IMG/VR virus record: IMGVR_UViG_3300025138_000028 | Origin: an uncultured virus (IMG/VR IMGVR_UViG_3300025138_000028) | Lineage: Duplodnaviria > Heunggongvirae > Uroviricota > Caudoviricetes | Direction: 5' to 3' (one strand) | Length of the DNA: 64,000 nucleotides | In this document: one piece after another, positions 10,349 through 24,383 of the stretch | Layout: each line of letters begins with the position of its first letter | Position numbering within the stretch: the first letter of the stretch is position 1 | Translations under genes and position numbers: made by a program | The notes under the pieces: generated by a model | What the model was told of the DNA's origin: nothing | The model's database searches: none | Seen by the model: only the letters and a program-made list of their open reading frames with translations

Positions 10349-10558
10349 ATGGATCTGGTAAAAATTAAGAATGAGAGTGAATATATGCGTGATTTAAATA
10401 GTGGAGCTATTGTAAATACGAACACTATAGATATAGAAAAACGTCGAAATTTGAAATTAAAAAAACGTCAAGAAAAAATAGAATTTGAAAATTTAAAAGT
10501 TGAAGTAAATGACATTAAGAAAATGTTAATCGAAATATCCAGAAAGTTAGGTGACTAA
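10349..10558 (+). CDS. Small coiled-coil protein of T4-like phages (hypothetical)
   Basis: RBS AGGAG; RDLNSGAIVNTN followed by a coiled-coil-like tail; coupled to the next gene by TAATG. Confidence 0.7.
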   Translation: MDLVKIKNESEYMRDLNSGAIVNTNTIDIEKRRNLKLKKRQEKIEFENLKVEVNDIKKMLIEISRKLGD

Positions 10559-11730
10559 TGGCACGACTAGAGAAAACGGAACTTAGTAATAGCATAAACG
10601 CTTGGAGAACAAAAACAAATCTCACAGCTTCTTATGTGGGAGATTTAGATAATCTAAACACTTCAGACAGTTCTTCAATTGTGGGTGCTATTAATTCAAT
10701 CGAAAGTAAATTTTCAGCTAACGGCGAAGTTGAAACTATAGCTAAAACAGCATTTAATGTGACAAATTCTGGTGGTGGCACATACGCCCAATTAACATAT
10801 GATAATACAACAGGTACATTTTCATTTGTTAGAAATGCTATCACTCAATTGGAAGTGCCTAATATTGACGCAGGTAAAATTACAACAGGAACACTTGATC
10901 CGGCAAGAGTTCCGGTATTTGATGCCGCTAATATTGCAACAGGTACAATAGCCACTGCAAGACTTCCATTCTTAGATGCAAACCAAACAACATCTGGTAC
11001 ATTTGCAGTAGGTAGAATTCCTAATATTGATGCAGCTAAAGTTATATCAGGCACATTAGCGATAGGTAGAATTCCAACTATTCCATCTAGTTACATTACG
11101 GACGATGGAACTGATCTTCCAGAAGCAATTATTCCACCTAATATAGCTAGAAAAAATTCAAGTGATACGATTACTGGTAATAGAGATTTTGCTGGAACAG
11201 CCACAGTTGCACAACAGTTGACTGCAAATGGCGGAATAGTTACAACTACTTTACAAACAACTGGTGATATTTTACCCGCTGCCAATAACTTATATAAAGT
11301 GGGATCCACAACTCAAAAATGGTTAGAGATGCACGCCACAACATTTCACGGTGTTGCTACGTCTGCAAACTTTGCTGACCTCGCAGAAAATTATACTACA
11401 GAACTAGATCATCCAGTTGGTACTGTAATGAGAGTATCTACAGGCGAAGTTGCAGAAACCGATGCGTGTAATTCTAATAGTATTCCTATAGGTGTTGTAT
11501 CTTTAGAGCCTGCATATTTAATGAATGCCGAATGTGAAGGACAATCACTCGCTCTTAAAGGACGAGTGCCCGTAAGAATTGTAGGACCAATAAGTAAAGG
11601 AGACGCGGTATATGCTTACAATGATGGAACTGCATCTAGTCTGTATGACGGAGCGCATATTGTAGGCATTGCTTTGGAATCTAATAATAATTCAGAAGAA
11701 AAATTAGTAGAGTGTGTTTTGAAAGTGTAG
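10558..11730 (+). CDS. Fibre-like virion protein with 18-aa repeats and a C-terminal peptidase G2-like/intramolecular chaperone-type domain
   Basis: Repeats of the form xPxxDAxxxxxGTxxxxR; C-terminal ADLAENY...GVVS.EPAYLMN...LKGRVPV. Confidence 0.65.
   Translation: MARLEKTELSNSINAWRTKTNLTASYVGDLDNLNTSDSSSIVGAINSIESKFSANGEVETIAKTAFNVTNSGGGTYAQLTYDNTTGTFSFVRNAITQLEVPNIDAGKITTGTLDPARVPVFDAANIATGTIATARLPFLDANQTTSGTFAVGRIPNIDAAKVISGTLAIGRIPTIPSSYITDDGTDLPEAIIPPNIARKNSSDTITGNRDFAGTATVAQQLTANGGIVTTTLQTTGDILPAANNLYKVGSTTQKWLEMHATTFHGVATSANFADLAENYTTELDHPVGTVMRVSTGEVAETDACNSNSIPIGVVSLEPAYLMNAECEGQSLALKGRVPVRIVGPISKGDAVYAYNDGTASSLYDGAHIVGIALESNNNSEEKLVECVLKV
10855..11070 (+). repeat. Four 18-aa (54-bp) degenerate tandem repeats
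   Basis: VPNIDAGKITTGTLDPAR / VPVFDAANIATGTIATAR / LPFLDANQTTSGTFAVGR / IPNIDAAKVISGTLAIGR. Confidence 0.85.
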
Positions 11731-11842: not shown

Positions 11843-12361
11843 ATGGAGAATATTATGTTTAGTAAACTAAAATTTTTAAATGCAATTCAATCAAAATATA
11901 TTTATCAGCAGAAAATGGTTTACTCTATTGATGAGGAAGGTCGTGAGAATCTTATAGAAAACTTTGCCGAAATAATGAAATATCCTATGCGATCTGTAAA
12001 AATTGAGAGAATGGAAGATTATAATAGAGATATATTTGATTACTGTTCATATCTAAGACGAAAACAAAAGCATAAAGGTCCTATTACCTGTCACTTGTTT
12101 TACGCATCTGAGGGTGCTTATTCATTTAAAGAACATACTGATCCAGACGATGTTGTAATATATTGTTGTGAAGGAGAAAAGTCTTTAACGATAAATGGAG
12201 CATATATAAAGATACCATCTCTATCTTGGGTAAAAATTCCTGCAAATACACCACATCAAGCATTTAATGAAACAGAAGCATTAACTTTAAGTTTTGGTCT
12301 AGAAGATTTTATAGAGGATAAAGTGACATATGAATTGGACGGTCTATCTAAAAACGACTGA
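11843..12361 (+). CDS. Cupin/JmjC-like Fe(II)/2OG oxygenase (alternative start 11855 after GGAG)
   Basis: HxD (KEHTDPDDV) plus distal His (IPANTPHQA) and LTLSFG, a jelly-roll facial-triad pattern. Confidence 0.7.
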   Translation: MENIMFSKLKFLNAIQSKYIYQQKMVYSIDEEGRENLIENFAEIMKYPMRSVKIERMEDYNRDIFDYCSYLRRKQKHKGPITCHLFYASEGAYSFKEHTDPDDVVIYCCEGEKSLTINGAYIKIPSLSWVKIPANTPHQAFNETEALTLSFGLEDFIEDKVTYELDGLSKND

Positions 12362-13349
12362 GACTTGCCAGCTTAATTGTAGCCATTGCTTCACAAGTGG
12401 AAGCAAGGGTCAGAAAATATATTGGAATACAGATAAAATAGTTGATTGGCTTCATAGATTTAGAGCGGAAAAACCAGATGAGCATGATTTTATTCATTTA
12501 GAGTTTCATGGTGGTGAGCCATTTCTTGTTCCTGTGGGACAAATGAGAAAAGTATATGATGCTTGTAACGGTCTTTGGAATGATATGTCTTGGGGAGCAA
12601 CAACTAATCTTGTATTTAAATTAAAAGATGAGCATAAAGAATTTATAAAAGGACCTTTAAAAGGTAGATTGGGTACTTCCTGGGATCGTAAAATAAGATT
12701 TGATAATGCTAAACAGTACGCATTATGGCATAAAAATGTAAAAACATTATTGAGCGAAGGAGTGACAATAAGGCTTTTTATAAGTCTGACAAAAGACACT
12801 CTTAAAAAAGAACCTATTGTTCTGTTGCGCTGGCTAAGAAGATTAGGCGTCCAAGAAGTGTCTCTTGAAAGGTTGACTAATAATGGAAATGCCAGAAGTG
12901 CGTCTGAAATTTTTCCCACAAACAAAGAGTTGGATGCTTATTTTCTAAAGCTACATCAACAAAGTGAAGAATATGGAGCAAGAGATTGGTTCGATAACTG
13001 TTTTCTTGAAGATGTTTACGCTAAATTTGAAAAAACTCAAATGACTTGTGGCACGTTTTGTCGAGACTGTGAACAAAAATTATTTACTGTGAATGGTGAT
13101 GGCAGCATTAGCGGATGTCCTAATGCTGCTCCAGAATTTCAATTTGGACATTTAGATGATTCTATTAAAACTCTTATAAATAGTCCTAGAAGAATACGAA
13201 CAATATTAGAAGAAAAGATACGAAATCCTAACTGTTTAAAATGTCCCGTAGCTAGATTTTGCGGTGGTGACTGTCACCAACTAGGTTGGGAAGGAGATAT
13301 ATGTGGAGCACCGAAAAGCTTGATGCTTGAATTAGCAGAAAATGTCTAG
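12330..13349 (+). CDS. Radical SAM protein with SPASM-like domain
   Basis: CQLNCSHC (CX3CX2C), FHGGEP, and C-terminal CRDC...GCPN...CLKC...CGGDC...C. Confidence 0.92.
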   Translation: MNWTVYLKTTETCQLNCSHCFTSGSKGQKIYWNTDKIVDWLHRFRAEKPDEHDFIHLEFHGGEPFLVPVGQMRKVYDACNGLWNDMSWGATTNLVFKLKDEHKEFIKGPLKGRLGTSWDRKIRFDNAKQYALWHKNVKTLLSEGVTIRLFISLTKDTLKKEPIVLLRWLRRLGVQEVSLERLTNNGNARSASEIFPTNKELDAYFLKLHQQSEEYGARDWFDNCFLEDVYAKFEKTQMTCGTFCRDCEQKLFTVNGDGSISGCPNAAPEFQFGHLDDSIKTLINSPRRIRTILEEKIRNPNCLKCPVARFCGGDCHQLGWEGDICGAPKSLMLELAENV

Positions 13350-13358
13350 GAGATAAAG

Positions 13359-14135
13359 ATGGCAATATCAGACCCTATTACAGAGAACCCTGTAATTACG
13401 AAATATAAAGAATTAGTAGCTACTAGAATTAATAATCAAATTGTATATCATGACGGTAACTTACCGGATTCCAAATTTGCTCACCAATTTGCGGGCAATC
13501 AAGGAGGAATTTCCACAACTCCTGATTTAATAGACGCTCCTATCACCGCTCAAGATATGTACAACGTTCTTTTGAAAGATGTTAATAGATTTACTAGGAT
13601 TAGAAGATTTAGTGCTTCAATAAACATATCTGGTGCAGGAGGTGGAGGACTTACACCTAATCTAAACCAATCAGGAGCTCAAACAGATAGAAGAACACAA
13701 GCAACAGAAAATATGAATTTTAGCTGTGAGTGGGTAACAGCATTTCCAGATACAACATTGAGAAATGATTTCAAACAAAAGTGGGGTCGTTTTGGAGTAG
13801 ATGATCTTACAGCAGCAACACAACTTTGCGAAGATGCCAAAGTTAAGTCTGCTGTCGCAAATAGAGCAGGATCTATTGTTGCGACAGCCAGAAGTGTTTC
13901 TAATCAAGTAGGAATTTTAAGTTCTAGACATAGATTTGATCTTGATTCATCAGACGTTACAAATAATTTATCTGCTGGGCAAGTTATTGACGATGCAGCA
14001 CTTGAGGTTTTATTTAATGCATTATATAATGCTTGGTCAGCTAAAGCTATAAGTGGTTCACCTGTGTCATTCTCTATGACAATGTGTCACTCTAACTGTC
14101 ATTCTAATTGCCATGCATCAAGAGGTAGGAGATAA
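13359..14135 (+). CDS. Hypothetical protein with C-terminal Cys/His repeat CHSNCHSNCHASRGRR; candidate substrate of the island
   Basis: Strong RBS AGGAG; Ala/Ser/Thr/Gly/Asn-rich, structural-like composition unlike the neighbouring enzymes; terminal repeat at 14085-14132. Confidence 0.75.
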   Translation: MAISDPITENPVITKYKELVATRINNQIVYHDGNLPDSKFAHQFAGNQGGISTTPDLIDAPITAQDMYNVLLKDVNRFTRIRRFSASINISGAGGGGLTPNLNQSGAQTDRRTQATENMNFSCEWVTAFPDTTLRNDFKQKWGRFGVDDLTAATQLCEDAKVKSAVANRAGSIVATARSVSNQVGILSSRHRFDLDSSDVTNNLSAGQVIDDAALEVLFNALYNAWSAKAISGSPVSFSMTMCHSNCHSNCHASRGRR

Positions 14136-14829
14136 AAATATTATGAGTGAAATGAATTTAGTGAAGGCTCCATTAGAGATTGGGGATCTACAATTATATT
14201 TTGAAAACAAAGATATTAAGTTTTTAATTGATTATGAAGGATCGACTTTAAAAGGAGAAGAACTTTTAGTATATTTGAGTAACTTAGAATTGCCGTGCGA
14301 TTTAAAAATTGACGATGATACTACTATGGCAGAATTAGGAAAAATATATTTAAAGTTTGAGAAAATAATTGATATTCCTATATTAGAAAAATTTATTATT
14401 GATGCCTTGTTTGGACATAGGCGAATTCTATTCGGTAACTCTCAATATATGAGTCTTGAAAATTTACTTTCTTTTGTTCAGGAAAATGAAGAACAGTTAG
14501 AAGCGTGGTGCGATAAGTTAGATTCCTTGACGCTCTATAATTTATATACAATTGACCAAGAACAAATGAAAGACTTTGTAAAATCTCATATAGAAGATGA
14601 TACAGATAGTATTAGAGGAATCAATTTTGTAAGCATTTTAAAAAATGAAAATTTTTATTATTATTATAATTCACTAGATGATTCCAAAAAATTGAAATAT
14701 TATTCAAAATATTTTAATGACTATATGTTTGCTGGAAAAGGACTATTCGATTTTTGGGCAGTTAAAGAAAATCCATTATTTGTATTATCCTGGGGTCTTC
14801 TAGAGGACACGACTGTTGGAACTGAGTGA
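14113..14829 (+). CDS. Hypothetical acidic protein of the radical SAM island (probable start 14143)
   Basis: Open frame; AGGAG at about 14127-14131 precedes ATG 14143; no motif recognised. Confidence 0.7.
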   Translation: MHQEVGDKNIMSEMNLVKAPLEIGDLQLYFENKDIKFLIDYEGSTLKGEELLVYLSNLELPCDLKIDDDTTMAELGKIYLKFEKIIDIPILEKFIIDALFGHRRILFGNSQYMSLENLLSFVQENEEQLEAWCDKLDSLTLYNLYTIDQEQMKDFVKSHIEDDTDSIRGINFVSILKNENFYYYYNSLDDSKKLKYYSKYFNDYMFAGKGLFDFWAVKENPLFVLSWGLLEDTTVGTE

Positions 14830-15853
14830 CTTTATATTAAGAGATAAGCGGGATTCTCAGCAAGAATATACCATACACTTATTCGAATTTTGCAATCTAA
14901 ATTGTCCGTTCTGCTGGCAAGACCACAATAATATTGTGGGTATTAATACAGTATTAGATAAATTAGAACCCGTTGATAAATTTTTAAAAACTGAAATGCG
15001 TAAAAGCGTTGTATTTAATATAATGGGCGGTGAGATATTTGCAGATGAGATATTTAATGTATCATTATTAAATGATTACATTGCTCTTGCTAAAGGCATA
15101 AAAGAACTTGGAAAAAAATATAATAAGAGAACAGAGATAAACTGGGTAACTAATCTTGTCATAAGTAAGCGCGATCAGATAGAAACTTTACTTCAGAATT
15201 GCCGTGATCTTAATATGAAAAGCAAACTAGTAACTTCATTTGATCCTGCGGGTAGATTTAATAAACCAAATCTTCAAATCTTTTTAGATAATATAGAATA
15301 TTTCAAAAATGAACTAGATGGCATAGGAATACTTTTAACAAAGCCTAATATCAAATACTGGTTAAAAGAGACTGAAGGAGTATTAAAGCAACTATATGAT
15401 GATGGAATATATCTGTACGCAGACTACTATATGCCGGACTGTCAAGCGAAACGAAGCGCACCTTCTGACCAAGATATGCTTGATATATTTAAACATTTCA
15501 TCAATAACTATCCGAAGATTGATCCTATTAGGTCATGGATAGAGAATGAAACAAATGTTGTTAGCTGTAGATCATCTAAATTGATACTAGAAGATGGAAC
15601 AATGTGTCTTTGTGGAAACCTTGTACAAGACGCAAAAGATAAAGCGATGTACAAAACAGATATACAAAAGAAAAATAATACTCCCATTGAAGCAAGTTTT
15701 ATAAACAAATATAATTGTTCGACTTGTAAATATTTTAGTAGATGTACTTTGGGGTGCTTTATGGCTCACGATTACAAATATGCTGAGGAAGTATTAGATG
15801 AATGTGTCTATAAAATAACACACAGATACATTGAAGAAAGTGGATTAAGGTGA
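14816..15853 (+). CDS. Radical SAM protein with Cys-rich SPASM/twitch-like C-terminus (TTG start)
   Basis: CNLNCPFC, MGGE, then SCRS...CLCG...CSTCKYFSRCTLGC...C. Confidence 0.88.
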   Translation: MELSDFILRDKRDSQQEYTIHLFEFCNLNCPFCWQDHNNIVGINTVLDKLEPVDKFLKTEMRKSVVFNIMGGEIFADEIFNVSLLNDYIALAKGIKELGKKYNKRTEINWVTNLVISKRDQIETLLQNCRDLNMKSKLVTSFDPAGRFNKPNLQIFLDNIEYFKNELDGIGILLTKPNIKYWLKETEGVLKQLYDDGIYLYADYYMPDCQAKRSAPSDQDMLDIFKHFINNYPKIDPIRSWIENETNVVSCRSSKLILEDGTMCLCGNLVQDAKDKAMYKTDIQKKNNTPIEASFINKYNCSTCKYFSRCTLGCFMAHDYKYAEEVLDECVYKITHRYIEESGLR

Positions 15854-16507
15854 ATGTTTTTACATGCAAATGTCGATATGACACCTATAAGCCAAACTAA
15901 GATAAATTATGGTTTTAAAAATTCAACTCCTGTAAAAAAGATTGATATTGATTACAATGTATGCTATAGTGTATTTGATTATGAAGTAGATAGCAGTTTG
16001 CCTCCTTGTTTACATTTTTTAGACAATTTCTTAACAAGCGAAGTTTATGTTTTTAGTTTACCACTATCAAGCAATCGTTTAAGTAAAATACCCTCTAAAT
16101 CAATTCTTAAAGACTATATTTCTAATTGGATAGGATATCCTAAAACTTCAATAACTAATAACTTAGAATTGGGTTGGATAGGAATTGAAAAATCTAAGAT
16201 AATTTCTAATATACAAATTAGTGGATTATATCTAAACACTTTGTCGAGAAAACAAGCAACAGATTTTTATAGACTTATGTTAAATTTTTGTCTAAAGGAA
16301 ATAAAAGCAAGACCTCTCTATGTACCTTCAGCTAAAACTATAAAAGCTTTTTCAAAAAAGTTTTCAAATCATAGAGATATGAAAATTATGGAAAGTCCTT
16401 ATACATCTAAGATACTAAAAGGAGCTAGTAAATGTAAGTTTACTGAGAGTATTTACGCTAATAGATACATAAATGAAGATGAAATGGAATTTTTTAGATA
16501 TGATTAA
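15854..16507 (+). CDS. Hypothetical protein
   Basis: 217-aa ORF that fills the gap in a tightly packed operon; no motif recognised. Confidence 0.6.
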   Translation: MFLHANVDMTPISQTKINYGFKNSTPVKKIDIDYNVCYSVFDYEVDSSLPPCLHFLDNFLTSEVYVFSLPLSSNRLSKIPSKSILKDYISNWIGYPKTSITNNLELGWIGIEKSKIISNIQISGLYLNTLSRKQATDFYRLMLNFCLKEIKARPLYVPSAKTIKAFSKKFSNHRDMKIMESPYTSKILKGASKCKFTESIYANRYINEDEMEFFRYD

Positions 16508-18152
16508 AATTGGCTATTTAGATCCTAGCAGCATACCAACCAGAACTAATTTTAATTATAACTGGATGCTTTTTAAATGTTTTTATGAAGATTTTGGTAA
16601 ATATCCAGATCAGGTTGAATGGGTTGAACCGCTCTATAAATGGAATGAAACTAATTTAGACGATATTTTATATTCACTACAAGATTGTGATATTGTATTG
16701 TTTACTAGTTATGTTTGGAACTATAAAATTAATAAAAAAGTTGTAGATCGTTTAAGTAAAGATACTGTAACTATTTTAGGAGGTCCTCATCAAAACTTTG
16801 AAATAGTAAGATACTACGATCATGTGGCAGATCCTACCGCTCCAGGAGAATTATTCTTACAATTCTTTATAGATATGTTTTTAGAAAATAACATCATAAA
16901 GAATAATATACCTTATTATAATAATGGACTAAAATTACCATATAAATTTGGCAGTAGTAATGTTTATAAAAGATGTGGTGAATATTTGAGAAAATGTTAT
17001 AACTATTTTAATGAAAATATTGATTATTTTCAAGAAATGATTATAGTTTATGAATCGACACGAGGTTGCCCATTTAAATGCACTTATTGTGAATGGGGTG
17101 GAGGTACAGCGACTAAGACTTTGAAAAAGACTATAGATGTAATAAAAGATGAACTTGAGTTTTTAGGAACTTTTGATAATTTAAAATTAGATTTGACAGA
17201 CGCGAATACCGGAATGTTAAAAAAACGCGATATCGAAATGATGCTTATTATGAAAGAAAATAATGTTCAAGTTGGTGATACTATTTCCGTTTTAAAAACA
17301 TTGAAAGTTGAAGATAAAATTGATATTATAGATTTTATGATTGAAAATGAAATTACTAGTAGAACAATCAGTATCAGTGTTCAATCGATATCCAAAAAAG
17401 CGAGAGATATTGCAAAACGTATTGATCTTGAATATGATGATACTATAAAACTAATTGATCATATTAAAGATAGATGGGGTAATCTACATGATAAAGATTT
17501 ATATGTTGATTTAGAATTGATATTAGGTATGCCCGGATCGACCCTAGAAGATTTTTATGATGAATTTAAACTATACTATAGATTAAGTTCTAATGTATCG
17601 AAATCTCCTGAAGGTCAGCCATGGCAGAATTTCAGAGATGGTAGATTTCCATATATGATTTTGCCTGCAACAGAGTCCGCTTCTCCGGTATATCAAAGAA
17701 AATATGGAATAAAAACTGCAAGAGTAGCTACATTTTTTGATAATAATTATCAATTTGATCCTGCAATAGATAAACCAAATTTATTATATGAAAATCATCA
17801 CTATGAATACGATACTATTATAGAATGTTTTAGTTATACTTTTGAAGAATATATTGAGATGTTTATAATGAACATCTACACTCCTATTTTATTTGAGGCA
17901 TTTACCAAAGAGTATATCACGTTTGAAAATATAAGTGTTGTCGCTAAAGAATTGTGGAATACACTTAACAAAATTTCAACATTTAATGTTTATAAAGAGT
18001 TAATCAAAAGAATATTTAACTCAAATGATGTTAGAAGTTTAGACAAATTTGGTGAGGGAAATTTCGATGATTTATCAATTGAAGAGGTGCTAAGAAATTT
18101 ATTATATGAAAATGAAAATCTTATAAGGAAAAACTTAGATGCAGTTTGTTGA
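16473..18152 (+). CDS. B12-binding-domain radical SAM protein, class B methyltransferase-like (probable start 16500)
   Basis: N-terminal LFTSYVWN...ILGGPH cobalamin-binding-type segment; ESTRGCPFKCTYCEWG; DANTG; ELILGMPG. Confidence 0.85.
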   Translation: MKMKWNFLDMIKIGYLDPSSIPTRTNFNYNWMLFKCFYEDFGKYPDQVEWVEPLYKWNETNLDDILYSLQDCDIVLFTSYVWNYKINKKVVDRLSKDTVTILGGPHQNFEIVRYYDHVADPTAPGELFLQFFIDMFLENNIIKNNIPYYNNGLKLPYKFGSSNVYKRCGEYLRKCYNYFNENIDYFQEMIIVYESTRGCPFKCTYCEWGGGTATKTLKKTIDVIKDELEFLGTFDNLKLDLTDANTGMLKKRDIEMMLIMKENNVQVGDTISVLKTLKVEDKIDIIDFMIENEITSRTISISVQSISKKARDIAKRIDLEYDDTIKLIDHIKDRWGNLHDKDLYVDLELILGMPGSTLEDFYDEFKLYYRLSSNVSKSPEGQPWQNFRDGRFPYMILPATESASPVYQRKYGIKTARVATFFDNNYQFDPAIDKPNLLYENHHYEYDTIIECFSYTFEEYIEMFIMNIYTPILFEAFTKEYITFENISVVAKELWNTLNKISTFNVYKELIKRIFNSNDVRSLDKFGEGNFDDLSIEEVLRNLLYENENLIRKNLDAVC

Positions 18153-18627
18153 AGTCCACGATAATATTTTTAATTCTACTGAAATTGAAGAAATATTAAA
18201 CGAGTTTAAATGGAAAAAATCTACAGGAATAGTAAATATATTAGATGAAATAAATCATCTTAACAAATTAGATTTAATAAAATGTTTAGTTTTAGGTAAA
18301 GGACATAAGACTCCAGTACTTGCACATGCACTTAATACAAAGTGTTACGATTTTACAACCAAAGATCATAAAATATGGGAACCTCATAACGATGCCGAAG
18401 AATGTAAAATTATAACTCTTTTATTTGTTGATATTGACACAAACGGTTGGGTAGGTGGAGAATTAGACATATATAAAAATTTAGATGTATTCGATTTTCC
18501 TAATAACAAAACAAGAATAGAACCTAAAGTTGGTAGATTAGTTTTGTTCGAAAGTTCTATGATACATGCTATACGGCCGTACTTCGGAAAAAAATCGAGA
18601 AAAACTATAAGCATAGGGTGGGAATGA
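18139..18627 (+). CDS. 2OG-Fe(II) oxygenase, prolyl-hydroxylase-like
   Basis: HND...WVGGEL...PKVGRLVLF...HAIRP...RKTI (HxD...H...R). Confidence 0.85.
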   Translation: MQFVEVHDNIFNSTEIEEILNEFKWKKSTGIVNILDEINHLNKLDLIKCLVLGKGHKTPVLAHALNTKCYDFTTKDHKIWEPHNDAEECKIITLLFVDIDTNGWVGGELDIYKNLDVFDFPNNKTRIEPKVGRLVLFESSMIHAIRPYFGKKSRKTISIGWE

Positions 18628-18628
18628 C

Positions 18629-19192
18629 ATGAATTTTGATGACGGCTATATGATAGAAAGTAGACCTGATTTGTTTAAGTATGTTGACGATACGATACCA
18701 AAATTATCTTGGTATTTTCCAAAGATTCTTGAAAATTTTTTAATTAAATTATTCGAAAGACCAGAATTTAAAGACTTTGATGTTCCTTGGAATTATCATC
18801 TTCATGGTATGAAAAGAAAGATGTTAAAAACTGCAAATTTACTAGATGAAGAATATTTGCCCAAAGGAAATAATGAATTGATTTATTATTCTATATGGAA
18901 TGGATCTGATACATCTTCTTACAAATGGCATAACGATTTAATAGAAGGAGCAAATGTTTTCTTTTTGATGTACTACACAAATATGAATCTAAATGAGGGT
19001 GGAGAGATTATGTTTAGAAATCTTAATCAAGATAAAAGAATAACATGCTTTCACTTACCTAAAAAATATGACGTCCTTTATGGTTCTCAAGCGAAACATT
19101 TTGAACATAGAGTTGAAACTTTGAGAGAACCTAATGTAGAAAGAATTGCAATGAATTTCGGATTTAAAGTAGATAATTCGCCATGGGAATAG
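18629..19192 (+). CDS. 2OG-Fe(II) oxygenase
   Basis: WHND...GGEI...HRVE...RIAMNF. Confidence 0.8.
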   Translation: MNFDDGYMIESRPDLFKYVDDTIPKLSWYFPKILENFLIKLFERPEFKDFDVPWNYHLHGMKRKMLKTANLLDEEYLPKGNNELIYYSIWNGSDTSSYKWHNDLIEGANVFFLMYYTNMNLNEGGEIMFRNLNQDKRITCFHLPKKYDVLYGSQAKHFEHRVETLREPNVERIAMNFGFKVDNSPWE

Positions 19193-19746
19193 ATTTTTCT
19201 GATTTCGATTTCAAAAAAGGTTGTTATCACGATAACAATTCTGGTATATTTAAATATGTCGATAACACTTTACCTAAGCTGAAATTTTTCAATGTTAAAG
19301 GTTTATTCACAGGAGAACCTGGAACAATATCTTGGAACTACCATGTACATTTTATGTATTTTAGAATGAGAAAAACAGCTAAACTTCTATTTGATTACTA
19401 TCTTCCATGGGAAAAGAAAATGAATTTAGTTTATCATCAAGTTTGGAATGGAGTTGAGCCTTTGTCTACTGATTGGCATCACGATACTGGTGGTGGCAAC
19501 ATTCAATTTAATTTGTATTATACAGATATTGATCCAAATATTGGTGGTGAAATAATGTATAGAAGTGTGAAAGAAGATAATAAAATTACATTTGCTGCTT
19601 TACCTAAAAAATATGATATAGTGATGGGAAGCTGTGGAAAAGATATGAAATTTCAACATAGAGTTGAAGGGTTTAGAACGAACAAAAAGAAAGAAAGATT
19701 AACGATGTTGTTTAGATTTAGTGTTGAGAAATCCCCTTGGACCTAA
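19183..19746 (+). CDS. 2OG-Fe(II) oxygenase, paralogue of 18629-19192
   Basis: WHHD...GGEI...HRVE...RLTMLF; shares FKYVD.T.PKL, WNYH, LPKKYD and SPW with its neighbour. Confidence 0.8.
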   Translation: MGIDFSDFDFKKGCYHDNNSGIFKYVDNTLPKLKFFNVKGLFTGEPGTISWNYHVHFMYFRMRKTAKLLFDYYLPWEKKMNLVYHQVWNGVEPLSTDWHHDTGGGNIQFNLYYTDIDPNIGGEIMYRSVKEDNKITFAALPKKYDIVMGSCGKDMKFQHRVEGFRTNKKKERLTMLFRFSVEKSPWT

Positions 19747-20777
19747 TAGTTAAACCAACTGAACTATGTAACTTTAAATGTAGTTTTTGTTCTTCCTCTA
19801 AAATCACAATGGAAGACAATACAGCTATTTTGGATTTAAATAAAATATTTAAGTTCCTAAAACGTTTTCCAAATACTCAGACTATTATCGTTAATGGTGG
19901 CGATCCTTTAATGATGAAACCTAATTACTATTGGAAAATTATAGAATTTCTTGATAAGCATAATTTACCGGCAACTCTTTCTCTCACAACTAATTTATGG
20001 CCTTTCTTAATGAAGCCTCTTAAATGGAAAGAATTATTTAATCATCCAAGAGTAGGAGTGTCAACATCTTTTCAGTATGGCGGCGGCAGATTAAAAGGCG
20101 ATTATAGCGACTTTACGGAAGAAGATTTTTGGAAATGTTCCGATGCTATGCTAGAGCATGTCGGATATAGACCTACTTTTATCTCTGTTATTGTAGAGGA
20201 AAATGAAGATACTGTTATTCAGACTGTAGAATTAGCGAAAAAAATGGATATAGTATGTAAAGTAAATTATGCAATGGCGTCAGGATCACAATCTGCTCCA
20301 TACCAACTATCGAAAATATATGAGAGATATATCCAGATATGGAAAGCAGGACTTAGTGATTGGGAACATAACACTCAACAAATGTTAAATAGATTAAGAG
20401 ATACACCCACAATATGTCCTCAGTCAAGAAACTGCGATAGTGGAATTCGAAATATTCAGCCAGAGGGTGATTACTATTCTTGTGGCTCTTTTGGAGATGA
20501 TTTTGATAAACCAATAGATTTTGAGTATGAAATGAATGGAGGATTTGAAACTCCTCTTAGTAATGATTTAAGTTTGATGAGTCTTAAAAATTCATGCTTC
20601 ACTTGTCCTATGTTCGAAATTTGTAATGGCTGTCGAAAAACAATCAAAGACCTAAAACAATATAACATGGTTGAAGATCATTGTAAACATATGAAATCAA
20701 TGGCAAGTGATATTATTGCTCTAAATAGAATTGACAGTAAAGTTACACCTTATATTGATGAGAGACAATCTGTATGA
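19737..20777 (+). CDS. Radical SAM protein with SPASM-like domain (TTG start)
   Basis: LIVKPTELCNFKCSFC, NGGDPL, then CPQSRNC...YSCG...CFTCPMFEICNGC...C. Confidence 0.92.
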   Translation: MDLIVKPTELCNFKCSFCSSSKITMEDNTAILDLNKIFKFLKRFPNTQTIIVNGGDPLMMKPNYYWKIIEFLDKHNLPATLSLTTNLWPFLMKPLKWKELFNHPRVGVSTSFQYGGGRLKGDYSDFTEEDFWKCSDAMLEHVGYRPTFISVIVEENEDTVIQTVELAKKMDIVCKVNYAMASGSQSAPYQLSKIYERYIQIWKAGLSDWEHNTQQMLNRLRDTPTICPQSRNCDSGIRNIQPEGDYYSCGSFGDDFDKPIDFEYEMNGGFETPLSNDLSLMSLKNSCFTCPMFEICNGCRKTIKDLKQYNMVEDHCKHMKSMASDIIALNRIDSKVTPYIDERQSV

Positions 20778-21331
20778 TTTATAATTTATTTCCTACTAAA
20801 ATCTATATCGAAAAAATGGATATTACAGATGAAGAATCTGAAGCAATATCAGATTTATGTAATATAATAAATGAAGTTGATAAAGATAAAGCTTTATTCA
20901 CTCAACATAATTTAGAGTGTTATCCTCTATTAAGAGAAGTTTATGATTTTTTTGTAAAATCTTTTTGTGAACTTTTATTGGAGTATGATGACGATGTAAC
21001 TTATGAAAATATCTATGATATGATGTTATATAAAACAGGTAAGATATCATACTTAAAAGACGGAGAATTTAAATCTATAAATGTTTCGACAAATGCTGAT
21101 TTAATTGCACTATTCTTTTTAAGCGATAAAAATTTAATTCTACATGATCCATCTTTTAAAAGAATTCCCATACTTAGTGATGACAGAGAATATTTAGTCG
21201 AAGGAAAGAAAGATACAATTATCGTTATTCCTGCAAATGTATGGCATGAAATTAGAACATATGATTCCGAAGATAATGGAGTTATTTTAACTATGGAAAT
21301 AAATATCGACAAACTATCTAGAATGCCATAA
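20774..21331 (+). CDS. Putative, possibly degenerate 2OG-Fe(II) oxygenase-like protein
   Basis: N-terminal LFPTKIY, LHDP and IPANVWHE resemble phage 2OG-oxygenase-like families, but the proximal HxH/HxD is not evident. Confidence 0.5.
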   Translation: MIYNLFPTKIYIEKMDITDEESEAISDLCNIINEVDKDKALFTQHNLECYPLLREVYDFFVKSFCELLLEYDDDVTYENIYDMMLYKTGKISYLKDGEFKSINVSTNADLIALFFLSDKNLILHDPSFKRIPILSDDREYLVEGKKDTIIVIPANVWHEIRTYDSEDNGVILTMEINIDKLSRMP

Positions 21332-21340
21332 GTCTAAAAA

Positions 21341-22273
21341 ATGATCGTATCAATAAATCCAACTTACTTCTGCAACTTTAGATGCGACTTTTGCTATCTA
21401 ACGTCTGAAGAATTAGGTAATCAGAAACAGATTTCGTTCAATAAACTAGACGAATTACTATCTCAAGTACATAATATTGAACACATTGACTTGTATGGTG
21501 GTGAAATTGGAGCAATGAAAAAATCTTATTTTTATGGACTTAAAGAAATTATTAGAAAACACTATTCTGGTATCATTAATATCAACACAAACTATTCTAT
21601 GATGCATCCCGGTTTTTTTGATAATGACGTATATCTCTCGGTATCGTATGATTTTGAAGCAAGAGAAAAATCAGAATTAGTATTTCAAAATATGTTAATG
21701 AGTACTGTACCTATAGCTGTTCTTATTTTAGCTTCTCCAAAAGTATTGGCAAAAGATGTACATCAAATGATTAATATGTTGAATATGTGTTCTTCAATTA
21801 CATCTGTTGAAATTAAACCATATTCAATTAACCAAGCTAATGCACATAATGTAACACACAAAGATTTTGAAGATTTTGTTATAAAGTGGCTTAAATTAAA
21901 AGACAAAATGAAGTTTGAATTTGTAAATGAAGAAAGAATTATAGAATCAATGAAAGGAAGATATAATGCATTTTCGGATGATCATATATACATCACTCCT
22001 TCTGGCAAATTTGGCGTCTTGGAATTTGACGAAGAAGATAAAGAATTCTTTCTTGAATTGGATTCTTGGGAACAATACCTCGATTGGACAAAAAAAGAAA
22101 AAGAAGAAATGGTAAGTCCTATATGTGCATCATGCATATATTTCGGAAACTGTTTAACTGAGCATTACAGATATGTTAAGGATTTAGATAATGGCTGTAA
22201 CGGATATAAAGGATTATTGGACTGGTATGGAAGATTGGAAAATAGCGAGTCAAGTTTATCATTTGCTTCATAA
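21341..22273 (+). CDS. Radical SAM protein with Cys-rich C-terminus
   Basis: NPTYFCNFRCDFCY, LYGGEIG, C-terminal CASCIYFGNCLTEH...GCNG. Confidence 0.9.
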   Translation: MIVSINPTYFCNFRCDFCYLTSEELGNQKQISFNKLDELLSQVHNIEHIDLYGGEIGAMKKSYFYGLKEIIRKHYSGIININTNYSMMHPGFFDNDVYLSVSYDFEAREKSELVFQNMLMSTVPIAVLILASPKVLAKDVHQMINMLNMCSSITSVEIKPYSINQANAHNVTHKDFEDFVIKWLKLKDKMKFEFVNEERIIESMKGRYNAFSDDHIYITPSGKFGVLEFDEEDKEFFLELDSWEQYLDWTKKEKEEMVSPICASCIYFGNCLTEHYRYVKDLDNGCNGYKGLLDWYGRLENSESSLSFAS

Positions 22274-22631
22274 AAATCATTCAGATGATTTGAATAGAGT
22301 AGATATAACTTGGATTGAAAATGATATAGTAGAGTGGTCTAAAAAGCACTTCAGTGAACACATTGAAGAATGGGTATATCCAGCAAAATCGTATTTTGTC
22401 GCAATATGTTATGCTTCTTGGTTATCTGAAGATTTTGATGAAAATTTCTGGAAACTTTTAAATGATGATATGTTACTTTCGGGCAATGATCCACATTTTG
22501 TAACATATGAAAATGATAAAGACACTTATGATAAAATTATAGAAGGCATAGAATTTCCGTTAAAAATGTCAGGAATGGTACCAGACGTCCGTAAATATTA
22601 TAATGCTGAGTTTGAATTAGCAATAAAATAG
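22191..22631 (+). CDS. Hypothetical protein, last gene of the island (probable start 22227)
   Basis: Open frame overlapping the radical SAM gene end; contains YPAKSYFVAICYA and NDPHF segments. Confidence 0.65.
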   Translation: MAVTDIKDYWTGMEDWKIASQVYHLLHKNHSDDLNRVDITWIENDIVEWSKKHFSEHIEEWVYPAKSYFVAICYASWLSEDFDENFWKLLNDDMLLSGNDPHFVTYENDKDTYDKIIEGIEFPLKMSGMVPDVRKYYNAEFELAIK

Positions 22632-22671: not shown

Positions 22672-23340
22672 ATGGCTAAAAAAATAAATATATCTCTAAC
22701 GGATACTGTAGGAACACTGAGACAATCGACAAATACAATGTCAGATTACGTAGGTGAACCAGATAATCTAGCTACAACTAATAAATCGGATTTAGTTCAA
22801 GCTATAAATGAGATTAACAGCAATACCGGAGCTTCTTTTATAACAAGTCGCCTAAGTTTAGCATCAGGTGGCGATGGTGGTCATACAACATTATCATACG
22901 ACTCTTCTAGTGGCACATTTCAATTCAACTGTAATGCTATCGGTCCAGGTGATTTTAATACTGCTTTGCCGGCTACTATTATTGCTTCTGGAGTTTTTGC
23001 TGCAGCAAGAATCCCTGCTTTAGATGCAAGTATAATTAATTCAGGAGTCCTTAATACGGCAAGAATTCCTGCCTTAAATACTATAAGCGGCACATTGACT
23101 AGTTCGCAGATTGGTTTTAATTCTGGAAATATTCCTGAAAATACTAATTTATTTCATACAACTGCTAGGGCAAGGGCTTCAATATCAGCTGGACATAGTC
23201 ATGTAGTATATAATAGTACAAGTGGTGAAATATCATTAGACTCATCTTCTGTATTATTTATAGGTCTTGCTGAATTGAAAACATATCTAAGTAATGCAGA
23301 TAGCTTTGGATCATTTGTCACTACGATTAACGCCCTATAA
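22672..23340 (+). CDS. Fibre-like virion protein, paralogue of the N-terminus of 10558-11730
   Basis: YVGEPDNLATTNKSDLVQAINEI, LSYDSSSGTFQF and ARIPALDASIINSG repeats. Confidence 0.7.
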   Translation: MAKKINISLTDTVGTLRQSTNTMSDYVGEPDNLATTNKSDLVQAINEINSNTGASFITSRLSLASGGDGGHTTLSYDSSSGTFQFNCNAIGPGDFNTALPATIIASGVFAAARIPALDASIINSGVLNTARIPALNTISGTLTSSQIGFNSGNIPENTNLFHTTARARASISAGHSHVVYNSTSGEISLDSSSVLFIGLAELKTYLSNADSFGSFVTTINAL

Positions 23341-23354
23341 AGAAAGAAATTTAG

Positions 23355-24383
23355 ATGGTCAAGATATTAGATTTACCAACGTTAGACTCCGCATCTTTAA
23401 CTGGCGGAACAGACTTTGTTGTTGTCACTGGACCAACTATTACTGGTGGTTACGGAACGGGCAAAGTTCTTCTAAATACTTTAAGCGATTATTACAACAA
23501 TACAGGTGCCCTAAATTCTGCTGGCGTTTCAAGCTTAGTGGATTCGAACTATATTTTTAATTCTATTAATAACTCAACTACCAATAGTTTAACAAAACCT
23601 ACAATAATCTCATGGAATAATATATCTAATAAGCCAAATAGCGTTGCAGGTACGGGCGTTTTAGACGCAATGAAAACTACCGATCTTAATATTGTGACTG
23701 CTGCCGCATCAGGCAGTGGAGCATTAGCGTATAATTCAGTATCAACAGAACTTACGTATACTCCTCCACTAATAACATCAAATGTGGATTCTTCTGGTGA
23801 TGTTACTGAAGGTCAAAATCTTTTCTTTACAGGAGCGAGAGTTGTTGCTATTGTAGACTCATCATATGTTAATGCAAGAGTAGATACGGGAATTGATTCC
23901 GCAGCAACAATTTCATTGGTAGATTCTGCCTACGTTTTAGCTAGGTCTTCTGCTGGACTAGATTCAGCTACAATCACCGGCTCTATCACAGATACAAAAT
24001 ATCTAAGATCAGATGAATTAGATAATGGACATTCTTTGAGCCTTAGCCACACATTTCATGCAGTCGGCGCAATAACTTCTGATGGCGATATTACTGCTTT
24101 TAATAGTGCATCAGATAGAAAACTTAAAGAGAATATAAAAGTTATTGATAATGCTGTTGACAAGATAGCTTCTATTTCAGGATATACATTTAACTATATC
24201 GGACGTGAAGAAAAAATGTCAGGAGTAATTGCAGACGAAGTTGAGGCTGTTTTGCCAGAAGTTGTTTATGAATTTGATGGTGAATATAAAGCTGTTCGTT
24301 ATGGTAATATGATGGGATTGATCATCGAAGCTATAAAAGAATTAAAGACAGATATTGACGAATTAAAAGAAAAGATTAAATAA
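23355..24383 (+). CDS. Tail fibre with C-terminal peptidase S74 intramolecular chaperone
   Basis: SDRKLKENI...GYTFNY...GVIADEVEAVLPEVV...VRYGNMMGLIIEAIKEL. Confidence 0.85.
   Translation: MVKILDLPTLDSASLTGGTDFVVVTGPTITGGYGTGKVLLNTLSDYYNNTGALNSAGVSSLVDSNYIFNSINNSTTNSLTKPTIISWNNISNKPNSVAGTGVLDAMKTTDLNIVTAAASGSGALAYNSVSTELTYTPPLITSNVDSSGDVTEGQNLFFTGARVVAIVDSSYVNARVDTGIDSAATISLVDSAYVLARSSAGLDSATITGSITDTKYLRSDELDNGHSLSLSHTFHAVGAITSDGDITAFNSASDRKLKENIKVIDNAVDKIASISGYTFNYIGREEKMSGVIADEVEAVLPEVVYEFDGEYKAVRYGNMMGLIIEAIKELKTDIDELKEKIK

What the first reader, a model, noticed from the sequence alone, without database searches (positions are those of the whole stretch)
13359..14135. Candidate substrate with C-terminal (CHSN)2-CHAS-RGRR core motif
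Seen: the protein ends MCHSNCHSNCHASRGRR*. The repeat codons differ at synonymous sites (tgt cac tct aac / tgt cat tct aat / tgc cat gca tca), which suggests selection at the protein level rather than recent slippage. The body is Ala/Thr/Ser/Gly/Asn-rich like the virion proteins, with two similar helical segments (APITAQDMYNVL, QVIDDAALEVLFNAL). Established: Cys-repeat cores are substrates for sactipeptide/ranthipeptide rSAMs; aromatic-X-X motifs, including His-Xaa-Ser, are associated with rSAM cyclophane chemistry. Inference: a large carrier or structural domain fused to a core with three H-x-(N/S) / CxxxC units. Caveats: the motif could simply bind metal or an Fe-S cluster, and the RGRR codons (agaggtaggaga) also supply the AGGAG RBS of the next gene.
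Basis: partly seen in the sequence, partly recalled or inferred. Interest (0 to 1): 0.85.

Follow-up and report, generated by a model that had tools for sequence, protein, structure and literature searches.

The report
Phage virion protein with Cys-His tail
A phage protein ends in an almost unchangeable 16-residue cysteine-histidine-serine tail and is always encoded beside a set of radical-SAM enzymes, which points to an undescribed enzymatic finishing step for a virus-particle protein.

Summary
ORF 13359-14135 (+) encodes 258 aa ending MCHSNCHSNCHASRGRR*, and the DNA motif is unique in the window (0 of 100 shuffles).

The tail CHxxCHxxCHxxRxRR is invariant in homologues down to 21% identity, while the body diverges and synonymous codons are scrambled. 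When loci were sampled through the neighbouring SPASM radical-SAM enzyme alone, 73 of 73 evaluable loci had such a gene directly downstream, at a median gap of -6 nt.

The core cassette is four rSAM enzymes, two proteins of unknown fold and a cupin. It recurs in marine T4-like phages, in jumbo phages and on Bdellovibrionota chromosomes.

The Atu_ph07 homologue (gp170) was found in purified virions; the enzymes were not.

Best reading (0.55): a virion protein of the host-recognition module whose tail is modified by the co-encoded rSAM enzymes and stays on the protein. The modification itself is not shown.

It belongs to no curated family. The closest known systems are HXS (HxsA), CrpA/CrpC and anSME. 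Earlier agents of this scan found the same system on other DNA.

The parts
10558..11730 (+). Tail-fibre-like protein directly upstream of the cassette
   Evidence: PHROG tail fibre families (phrog_19602 1.2e-17, phrog_22593 6.8e-24). A homologue lies upstream of the cassette in 34 of 55 loci. The Atu_ph07 homologue gp176 (66.07 kDa) is in the virion proteome.
11843..12361 (+). Cupin/JmjC-like protein, first gene of the cassette
   Evidence: Pfam Cupin_2 8e-05 and JmjC_2 2e-04, both below cut-off; phrog_8014 3.7e-24. Present in 46 of 55 loci.
12330..13349 (+). rSAM_A: radical SAM enzyme with a full SPASM domain and no N-terminal RRE extension; its stop lies 9 nt before the CH-tail gene
   Evidence: CxxxCxxC at residues 13-20. 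SPASM TIGR04085 scores 36.7 bits against a cut-off of 27. phrog_1802 4e-60. Invariant Cys at 244, 247, 263, 302, 305, 311, 315, 325. Nearest solved structures are 8vpo and anSME 4k36. 73 of 73 evaluable loci have the CH-tail gene downstream.
13359..14135 (+). CH-tail protein (the finding): a folded alpha/beta body of no known fold plus the C-terminal tail
   Evidence: No Pfam or NCBIfam family. AF2 pLDDT 87, pTM 0.74. No PDB fold match. 859 cluster representatives at E<=1e-3.
14085..14132 (+). The 16-residue tail CHSN-CHSN-CHAS-RGRR (residues 243-258), at the exact C-terminus
   Evidence: C243 H244 C247 H248 C251 H252 R255 R257 R258 are invariant in A1. Logo from 152 proteins. The tail is low-confidence in the model (pLDDT 65 and 53 for the last two blocks).
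14143..14829 (+). Conserved partner of unknown function (phrog_20767), always directly downstream
   Evidence: phrog_20767 4.6e-50. Present in 51 of 55 loci. AF2 pLDDT 92.6, pTM 0.89. No fold match: best Foldseek E 0.18 and best VIA Z 3.9.
14816..15853 (+). rSAM_B, radical SAM enzyme with a Cys-rich C-terminus
   Evidence: Pfam Radical_SAM 29.5 bits; phrog_1802 1.5e-44. Present in 55 of 55 RxRR-tail loci and 0 of 9 loci of the clade that lacks RxRR.
15854..16507 (+). Unknown protein, accessory to the cassette
   Evidence: No family. Present in 5 of 55 loci.
16473..18152 (+). B12-binding radical SAM (methyltransferase-like), accessory
   Evidence: NCBIfam KedN5 family 1.8e-22, below cut-off; Pfam Radical_SAM 34.6 bits. 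Present in 21 of 55 loci.
18139..19746 (+). Three 2OG-Fe(II)-oxygenase-like genes (18139-18627, 18629-19192, 19183-19746), accessory
   Evidence: Pfam 2OG-FeII_Oxy_3 scores 30.5 bits for the first and 22.8 for the second. The third matches only phrog_19592. The 18629-type is present in 34 of 55 loci.
19737..20777 (+). rSAM_C, radical SAM/SPASM enzyme
   Evidence: Pfam Radical_SAM 37.9 bits. SPASM TIGR04085 scores 21.7 bits, below cut-off; DynA 2.2e-15, below cut-off. Present in 53 of 55 loci.
20774..21331 (+). Unknown protein, accessory
   Evidence: Only a weak TIGR02466 match at 0.0084. Present in 14 of 55 loci.
21341..22273 (+). rSAM_D, radical SAM enzyme
   Evidence: Pfam Radical_SAM 28.5 bits, just below cut-off; phrog_1802 3.5e-29. 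Present in 54 of 55 RxRR-tail loci and 0 of 9 in the clade without RxRR.
22191..22631 (+). Small conserved protein (phrog_20737) that closes the cassette
   Evidence: phrog_20737 3.6e-37. Present in 46 of 55 loci. No NCBIfam family.
22672..24383 (+). Two tail-fibre genes downstream (22672-23340, 23355-24383)
   Evidence: 29 PHROG tail-fibre families match the second gene, e.g. phrog_5668 2e-30.

Best explanation
ORF 13359-14135 encodes a virion-associated protein of the phage's host-recognition (tail-fibre) module. It has a fast-evolving folded body of unknown fold, whose last beta-strand runs straight into a flexible, invariant 16-residue C-terminal tail, (Cys-His-x-Ser/Asn)x3-Arg-Gly-Arg-Arg. 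The most likely mechanism is that the tail is the substrate of the co-encoded radical SAM/SPASM enzymes. rSAM_A is translationally coupled to the gene, and rSAM_B, C and D also belong to the core cassette. These enzymes would install covalent changes on the Cys and/or His-x-Ser units, such as thioether or His-to-C-beta cross-links. Cupin, 2OG oxygenases and a B12-rSAM would act as optional tailoring enzymes. The modified tail would stay on the protein, which then enters the particle, while the enzymes stay behind. Shown: the sequence anatomy, the invariance of the tail, the strict gene linkage, and virion presence of one homologue. Inferred: that the tail is modified at all, which enzyme acts where, the chemistry, and the role in the virion.
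For: (1) The tail is invariant while the body diverges. Mean column identity is 23% for the protein and 57% for rSAM_A across comparable locus sets. Synonymous codons are scrambled.

(2) Linkage is strict. Loci sampled by rSAM_A motifs only gave 73 of 73 evaluable loci with a strict-tail ORF right downstream, at a median gap of -6 nt.

(3) Among 55 strict-tail loci with at least 9 kb downstream, rSAM_B is present in 55, D in 54, C in 53 and A in 52.

(4) In bacterial and archaeal genomes, 37 of 47 pattern matches are in-frame terminal tails. All but one of the 37 have cassette genes nearby; the exception, L100, stops just past the gene.

(5) Tandem duplicate tail genes occur in L061, L073, L079-81, L089, L097, L099, L109, L126 and L019, as is common for precursors.

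(6) The enzymes are SPASM-type, aligned end to end with peptide and protein maturases and anSME, and lack an RRE extension. This suits a protein substrate.

(7) There is one co-variation. The clade whose tail ends CHGS[I/L], without RxRR, has lost rSAM_B, rSAM_D, the cupin and phrog_20737 in 9 of 9 loci with full flanks.

(8) The body has no Cys in 118 of 152 proteins, so the three Cys act within the tail.

(9) Rare variants keep an aromatic-x-S/N triad when Cys or His changes. Examples are ...CHSNHSNTCHSSRSRR and ...CHSSCHSNVTCYNSRGRR.

(10) Atu_ph07 gp170, the homologue, is in purified virions with 8 unique peptides and 35% coverage. It is most abundant in the top gel slice although it weighs 31.9 kDa. 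The adjacent enzymes gp164-169, 171 and 172 are not listed (PMC6102473 supplement Table S5; mapping checked by exact masses).

(11) There is precedent for rSAM maturation of whole proteins: HxsA with HxS repeats (PMC13128918, abstract and section 9) and CrpA (PMC13692751, abstract).
Against: An unliganded metal-binding tail would also be invariant and would also be modelled with low confidence.

Four to seven rSAM enzymes seem many for 16 residues, so some may act on other substrates, such as fibres or the unlabelled genes in the cassette.

In the short (about 128 aa) tandem forms and in several Bdellovibrionota loci, rSAM_A is not adjacent but several kb away or on the other strand.

The co-variation is a single clade, so it counts as one event.

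The high-mass migration of gp170 may be disulfide aggregation. The paper's loading buffer lists no reductant. That proteome also contains non-structural proteins, mostly with single peptides.

The virion evidence is from a 21%-identical homologue, not from this phage.
Confidence: 0.55

Rival explanations
1. The tail is a metal-binding or Fe-S-binding module (three Cys plus three His) that works unmodified, for example to stabilise an oligomeric virion component. The rSAM enzymes modify other targets, such as the neighbouring fibre proteins.
For: Cys and His are classic metal ligands and are the invariant residues. The tail is modelled with low confidence, as expected without a ligand. Gp170 of Atu_ph07 runs mainly in the top gel slice, as SDS-stable fibre oligomers do. 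The cassette sits among fibre genes.
Against: This does not explain the near-invariance of Ser at the fourth position of each unit (136, 122 and 130 of 152) or of RxRR. It does not explain start/stop overlap with rSAM_A in most loci, tandem duplicates, or loss of RxRR together with two rSAMs. Variants that lose a Cys or swap His for Tyr keep the aromatic-x-S/N triad. No fibre-type repeat or known metal-site fold was found in the body.
Confidence: 0.22
2. The protein is an accessory factor for the enzymes rather than their substrate. It could be a docking scaffold, a dedicated Fe-S or electron carrier, or a chaperone that presents another substrate.
For: It is strictly co-inherited with the enzymes. 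Phages with many rSAM genes also carry Fe-S assembly genes (PMC5332604, passage). The Cys-rich tail could hold a cluster.
Against: The homologue is in virions with good coverage while the enzymes are not. The body evolves far faster than the enzymes, which is odd for a shared docking partner. Tandem duplicates and fusions of the tail to unrelated bodies (P0015, P0058) fit a tag on cargo better than a carrier.
Confidence: 0.08
3. The protein is a true RiPP precursor. The tail is modified, then cut off and released as a small peptide (a natural product or cofactor), and the body serves only as a leader.
For: An invariant C-terminal core is typical of cofactor-type RiPPs (mycofactocin and PQQ, recalled, not tested). 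There are many tailoring enzymes.
Against: No protease or transporter is present in the window cassette or in three annotated Bdellovibrionota loci. The tail follows directly on the last beta-strand of a well-folded body. The full-length-sized protein is found in virions, although which peptides were seen is not reported.
Confidence: 0.07

Closest known systems
HXS antiphage system (HxsA effector matured by rSAM enzymes HxsB/HxsC with HxsD; Li et al., Nat Commun 2026, PMC13128918; abstract and section 9 read)
   Same: A whole protein, not a short peptide, carries tandem His-Xaa-Ser units enriched in basic residues. It is encoded with more than one radical SAM enzyme plus a small partner of unknown function. 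In HxsA a +8 Da change maps to the last HxS unit (SHRSS), and His and Ser are essential. Here there are three H-x-S/N units followed by RGRR.
   Different: No component reaches any Hxs model: HxsB scores 34.9 bits against a cut-off of 370, HxsC 30.1 against 267.9, and there is no HxsA or HxsD hit. Each unit here is preceded by an invariant Cys. The tail is at the exact C-terminus. No peptidoglycan-binding domain was found and no export signal is evident by eye (no predictor was run). The system is encoded by phages, in the tail-fibre module, and the protein is virion-associated; HxsA is a bacterial periplasmic defence effector.
CrpA/CrpC of Methanococcus voltae (SPASM rSAM installing ranthionine thioether cross-links on a Cys-rich protein; PMC13692751, abstract read)
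   Same: A SPASM radical SAM enzyme acts on a folded Cys-bearing protein encoded beside it.
   Different: Per its section title, CrpC has a predicted RRE, whereas rSAM_A starts at the rSAM motif. Here the Cys are three, in a fixed CHxS register. No sequence relation was tested.
Anaerobic sulfatase-maturating enzyme (anSME) with sulfatase substrates
   Same: It is among the nearest solved structures by sequence: 4k36, E 1.5e-6, aligned 12-318 to 13-333. The architecture is the same, with no RRE and a SPASM domain, and it acts on a protein. The window's last unit C-H-A-S-R fits the recalled C/S-x-P/A-x-R motif.
   Different: TIGR03942 scores 43.0 bits against a cut-off of 349. Across the family the third residue of the last unit is G in 78, S in 43 and A in only 5 of 152, so the sulfatase motif is not conserved. 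No sulfatase domain is present.
Triceptide / three-residue cyclophane rSAM RiPPs acting on His (HaaB, HtkB: His-C2 to C-beta cross-links; PMC11499958, abstract in search listing)
   Same: Aromatic-x-x units with His are known rSAM cross-link sites. Here the H-x-S/N units are kept even in variants that lose the Cys, and one variant has Tyr in place of His.
   Different: The enzymes are not members: XyeB scores 21.3 against 450, GrrM 20.7 against 310, FxsB 21.3 against 370. The substrate is a 120-520 aa protein and not a leader-core peptide. The invariant Cys has no counterpart.

Membership tests
HXS system (HxsA/B/C/D) | rSAM enzymes are HxsB (TIGR03978) and HxsC (TIGR03977) equivalogs | tested here: not met
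   rSAM_A against HxsB scores 34.9 bits (cut-off 370). rSAM_C against HxsC scores 30.1 bits (cut-off 267.9).
HXS system (HxsA/B/C/D) | The effector and small partner match the HxsA and HxsD families | tested here: not met
   No NCBIfam hit at E<=0.01 for the tail protein or for the 14143 protein. None at E<=0.001 for six homologues of these two proteins.
HXS system (HxsA/B/C/D) | Tandem His-Xaa-Ser repeats in the substrate protein | tested here: met
   There are three H-x-S/N units. Ser is at the third place of the unit in 136, 122 and 130 of 152 proteins. The window has HSN, HSN, HAS. The units are spaced by Cys, unlike HxsA as described.
Sactipeptide/ranthipeptide RiPP | rSAM maturase with a SPASM (or twitch) auxiliary-cluster domain | tested here: met
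   TIGR04085 scores 36.7 bits against a cut-off of 27 in rSAM_A. Eight invariant C-terminal Cys.
Sactipeptide/ranthipeptide RiPP | Membership of a characterised maturase equivalog (PapB, SCIFF, CcpM, SkfB, CXXX-repeat, Cys-every-fifth) | tested here: not met
   PapB 45 against 340; SCIFF 19.2 against 425; CcpM 22 against 500; SkfB 18 against 300; CXXX-repeat 31.9 against 350; CefB 23.2 against 600.
Sactipeptide/ranthipeptide RiPP | Short leader-core precursor recognised through an N-terminal RRE domain | tested here: not met
   The substrate candidate is a folded protein of 258 aa. CxxxCxxC begins at residue 13 of rSAM_A, leaving no room for an RRE.
Sactipeptide/ranthipeptide RiPP | Cys-derived thioether cross-links in the product | not testable with these tools
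   Needs mass spectrometry.
Triceptide (3-residue cyclophane) RiPP | Maturase of the XyeB/GrrM/FxsB families | tested here: not met
   XyeB 21.3 against 450 (rSAM_C); GrrM 20.7 against 310 (rSAM_D); FxsB 21.3 against 370 (rSAM_A).
Triceptide (3-residue cyclophane) RiPP | Repeated aromatic-x-x motif in the core | tested here: met
   H-x-S/N occurs three times. A Tyr variant appears in L019. The motif definition is recalled.
anSME / sulfatase maturation | Enzyme is a TIGR03942 equivalog | tested here: not met
   43.0 bits against a cut-off of 349.45. The alignment to 4k36 is full length but weak (E 1.5e-6).
anSME / sulfatase maturation | Substrate motif C/S-x-P/A-x-R (recalled) | tested here: not met
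   The window's CHASR fits, but the family has G in 78, S in 43, T in 12 and A in 5 of 152 at the third place.
Phage virion (structural) protein | Detected in purified particles | tested here: inconclusive
   Met for the Atu_ph07 homologue gp170, with 8 peptides and 35% coverage (PMC6102473 Table S5). Not known for this phage. That proteome also lists some non-structural proteins.

The most novel reading that the evidence does not exclude
Phages, from marine T4-like myoviruses to jumbo phages of Agrobacterium, Ralstonia, Burkholderia, Pseudomonas and Sinorhizobium, and predatory Bdellovibrionota share a dedicated RiPP-like pathway. In it, four radical SAM/SPASM enzymes convert an invariant (Cys-His-x-Ser)x3-RGRR end of a fibre-module protein into a covalently cross-linked structure, possibly metal-binding or DNA/envelope-binding. 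That structure travels in the virus particle and acts during host recognition or entry. This would be the first enzyme-installed radical cross-link or cofactor-like element known in a virion. It would also be a phage-side counterpart of the HxS-repeat chemistry that bacteria use in the HXS defence against DNA entry.
Probability: 0.35. Interest if true: 0.9.

Novelty: new variant of a known kind. Interest (0 to 1): 0.8.

Why it matters
Radical-SAM maturation is known for small peptides and, very recently, for a few whole proteins (HxsA, CrpA). If this reading holds, it would extend that chemistry to a component of virus particles. The cassette is large (859 protein clusters at 50% identity) and conserved from ocean phages to cultivable jumbo phages and to predatory bacteria, next to the genes that decide host range.

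The system is directly testable. Several isolated phages carry it (Atu_ph07, the RSL2 group, pPa_SNUABM_DT01, Phosso), and a 16-residue invariant tail gives a clean mass-spectrometry target.

None of my literature searches returned a paper that describes the tail or assigns the cassette a function. Papers only list the enzymes as 'radical SAM', 'Fe-S oxidoreductase' or 'cupin' genes.

Tried and rejected

Fold searches of the tail protein gave no usable match. Foldseek against PDB had a best E of 0.73. VIA wide had a best Z of 6.7, only on the helical hairpin insert 94-177 that is specific to this subfamily. BFVD returned only uncharacterised phage homologues.

Fold searches of the 14143 protein also gave nothing: best E 0.18 and best Z 3.9. 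This does not show a new fold.

A profile of A1 against PDB sequences gave only a chance-level row at E 0.35. The ESM Atlas gave no usable hit.

tblastn of two metagenomic tail proteins (L012, L065) against isolated phages found no match. Isolated carriers were found through the RSL2 protein and through rSAM_A instead.

For phiRP31, the ORF tables show a 125-aa ORF70 upstream of its rSAM genes. I could not see its sequence, and the held tables did not tell me which ORFs are virion proteins. I did not read Table4.PDF of that paper.

No whole genome is held for the window. A look-up of earlier findings by place returned nothing. The promoter and terminator scan was uninformative in this AT-rich DNA: 85 sites found against 66 expected.

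I considered that the tail is a slippage repeat or only an RBS by-product. I rejected this because of the scrambled codons.

I considered that the Bdellovibrionota copies are prophages. I rejected this for the three loci annotated, whose flanks carry LspA, LolA, a helicase and an AMP-binding enzyme. The other loci were not checked.
Full report
**Observation.** The ORF at 13359-14135 (+) is real. It has an ATG start preceded by AGGAG, runs 258 aa, and ends ...SMTMCHSNCHSNCHASRGRR*. The back-translated (Cys-His-x-x)x3 pattern occurs once in the 64-kb window, and none of 100 shuffles contains it. The protein matches no Pfam or NCBIfam family. Its last 43 residues match the end of PHROG 35144, a family of unknown function.

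**Surroundings in the window.** The gene lies inside a co-directional block between tail-fibre genes (10558-11730 upstream; 22672-24383 downstream). The block contains, in order:
- a cupin/JmjC-like gene (11843);
- rSAM_A with a full SPASM domain (12330; its stop is 9 nt before the tail gene);
- the tail gene;
- an unknown gene (14143, phrog_20767);
- rSAM_B (14816);
- an unknown gene (15854);
- a B12-type rSAM (16473);
- three 2OG-oxygenase-like genes;
- rSAM_C with a sub-threshold SPASM-like match (19737);
- an unknown gene (20774);
- rSAM_D (21341);
- a small phrog_20737 gene (22191).

None of the rSAM enzymes reaches the cut-off of any named equivalog. The best scores are 40-57 bits against cut-offs of 300-450. 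rSAM_A starts at its CxxxCxxC motif (residue 13), so it has no RRE extension. Its nearest solved relatives are 8vpo and the anaerobic sulfatase maturase 4k36, the latter aligned over nearly its whole length.

**Conservation of the tail.** Twelve homologues from the 5.8-billion-protein set, plus the jumbo phage Atu_ph07 protein (21% identical), all keep C243, H244, C247, H248, C251, H252, R255, R257 and R258.

A scan of IMG/VR found 112 relatives. Of the 81 loci I then held (80 from the scan plus Atu_ph07 from GenBank), 77 have an ORF that ends exactly CH..CH..CH..R.RR. The four exceptions are:
- L010, where the contig ends inside the gene;
- L075 and L076, which end CHGSI;
- L019, which has two tandem genes ending CHSSCHSNVTCYNSRGRR.

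Part of the tail served as a search seed in that scan, so I sampled again through rSAM_A motifs alone. That gave 367 relatives, of which the best 80 were kept. Six had under 1 kb downstream, and in one my pattern did not find the rSAM_A ORF. All 73 others have a strict-tail ORF immediately downstream, at a median gap of -6 nt.

A full HMMER pass over 1.84 billion cluster representatives gave 859 hits at E<=1e-3 and 612 at E<=1e-10. Of the best 150, 137 end in the strict tail.

The logo from 152 distinct proteins is C-H-[S71/A56]-[S136/N12]-C-H-[S104]-[S122/N25]-C-H-[G78/S43]-[S130/A15]-R-[G132]-R-R. The family unit is therefore Cys-His-x-Ser, and the window's Asn is a minority form. Codons at the fixed residues are fully mixed, including both Ser and both Arg codon families. 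The body has no Cys in 118 of 152 proteins. Mean column identity is 23% for the protein and 57% for rSAM_A.

**The cassette.** Among 55 strict-tail loci with distinct proteins and at least 9 kb downstream, the counts are: rSAM_B 55, rSAM_D 54, rSAM_C 53, rSAM_A 52, the 14143 protein 51, cupin 46, phrog_20737 46, an oxygenase 34, and the B12 rSAM 21. Each locus has 3 to 7 rSAM-like genes, with a median of 5. The core is thus the tail protein, four rSAMs and two unknown proteins, usually with a cupin. Oxygenases and the B12 enzyme are optional.

One clade has a tail that ends CHGS[I/L], without RxRR. All 9 of its loci with full flanks keep only rSAM_A, the 14143 protein, rSAM_C and the B12 enzyme. 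This is one lineage and hence one event, but it ties the RxRR end to part of the enzyme set.

**Where the system occurs.** Isolated phages with rSAM_A at 41-51% identity number 15 records: Atu_ph07, the Ralstonia/Burkholderia RSL2-RSF1-FLC group, Sinorhizobium Phosso and Pseudomonas pPa_SNUABM_DT01. The tail gene was confirmed in Atu_ph07, in 11 RSL2-group records, and in DT01 and Phosso.

Papers on these phages and on pelagimyophages list the enzymes without a function.

In one genome per prokaryotic species, the full tail pattern matched 47 stretches. Thirty-seven are in-frame C-terminal tails, and the other 10, mostly in GC-rich genomes, are not. Twenty-six of the 37 are in Bdellovibrionota, some on contigs of 1.3-2.8 Mb. 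The three loci I annotated there are flanked by housekeeping genes (LspA, LolA, a helicase, an AMP-binding enzyme), and one carries a Peptidase_S74 fibre-like gene. The rest are MAG contigs that may be phage DNA.

**Structure.** AF2 on 53 sequences gives a confident alpha/beta body (pLDDT 87, pTM 0.74). The tail follows the last strand at low confidence. No solved fold matches. The 14143 protein is also confidently modelled (pLDDT 92.6) and has no match. Longer forms exist: P0015 (522 aa, a different body with the same tail) and P0058 (453 aa, a Gly-rich N-terminal region fused to the domain).

**Virion evidence.** The Atu_ph07 paper reports ESI-MS/MS of purified particles (PMC6102473; passages and supplement Table S5 read). 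Its gp170 is listed at 31.89 kDa with 8 unique peptides and 35.16% coverage. It was found in slices 1-9 and was most abundant in slice 1.

I mapped gp numbers to the GenBank CDS by computed masses. The tail protein is 31.89 kDa, and its neighbours of 66.07 and 21.66 kDa equal gp176 and gp177. The enzymes (gp164-169, 171, 172 by this mapping) are not in the table.

The major capsid protein (43.5 kDa) peaks in slice 6, so a 32-kDa protein peaking in slice 1 runs as a much larger species. The loading buffer as described has no reductant, so disulfides are one possible cause.

**Interpretation.** The data fit a virion protein whose invariant tail is the target of the co-encoded rSAM enzymes and stays on the protein. 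I put this at 0.55. The rivals are:
- an unmodified metal-binding tail, with the enzymes working on other proteins (0.22);
- an accessory factor for the enzymes (0.08);
- a released peptide (0.07).

The chemistry is open. The Cys point to thioethers, and the H-x-S units point to His cross-links of the kind known from HaaB/HtkB or to the change seen in HxsA. Variants that lose a Cys or replace His by Tyr still keep an aromatic-x-S/N triad, which leans slightly towards the second.

**Comparison with known systems.** It works most like the HXS defence system (HxS repeats on a protein, several rSAMs, a small partner) and like CrpA/CrpC. However, every membership test against curated models failed. 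None of my searches returned a paper that describes the tail.

**Earlier notes of this scan.** Other agents describe the same system on other DNA and reach a similar reading. I saw those notes after my own analyses. They gave me the two 2026 papers, which I then read myself.

Noticed in passing
window 26844-40556 (+): A single ORF of 4570 aa lies downstream of the fibre genes. Atu_ph07 has a comparable 13.3-kb 'T4-like phage structural protein' gene just upstream of its cassette.
   Followed up: no
L061, L073, L079-L081, L099, L109, L126, L019 (e.g. L073 9683-10455): Two tandem copies of short (125-140 aa) or variant tail genes lie side by side. In these loci the rSAM genes lie 0.7-8 kb downstream and are too divergent to be labelled by phmmer.
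   Followed up: partly
L223-L247 (e.g. L223 10001-10534): One clade has tails ending ...CHGS[I/L] without RxRR. Its cassette is reduced to rSAM_A, the 14143-type protein, rSAM_C and a B12 rSAM in 9 of 9 loci with full flanks.
   Followed up: yes
L125, L094, L102, L104 (Bdellovibrionota contigs up to 2.8 Mb): The cassette sits in chromosomes of predatory bacteria between housekeeping genes (LspA, LolA, helicase). In L102 it lies next to a Peptidase_S74 fibre-like protein. This suggests use outside phages, perhaps with prey-adhesion fibres.
   Followed up: partly
P0058 (453 aa) and P0015 (522 aa): P0058 fuses a Gly-rich N-terminal region to the tail-protein domain. P0015 carries the same tail on a long, otherwise unaligned body. 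No genomic context could be fetched.
   Followed up: no
P0070, P0102; L019 9473-10829: Rare tail variants include ...CHSNHSNTCHSSRSRR, where the second Cys is lost but H-S-N is kept, and ...CHSSCHSNVTCYNSRGRR, where the third His is replaced by Tyr.
   Followed up: partly
phiRP31 ORF70-ORF75 (PMC5468394 supplement): Another Ralstonia jumbo phage group has a 125-aa 'predicted ORF' two genes upstream of its rSAM, Fe-S oxidoreductase and MoaA-like genes. A virion proteome exists for this phage. I could not read the ORF's sequence to see whether it carries the tail.
   Followed up: partly
window 6079-10344 (+): A 1421-aa protein with DUF4815 (1.5e-31) lies upstream of the fibre-like gene.
   Followed up: no
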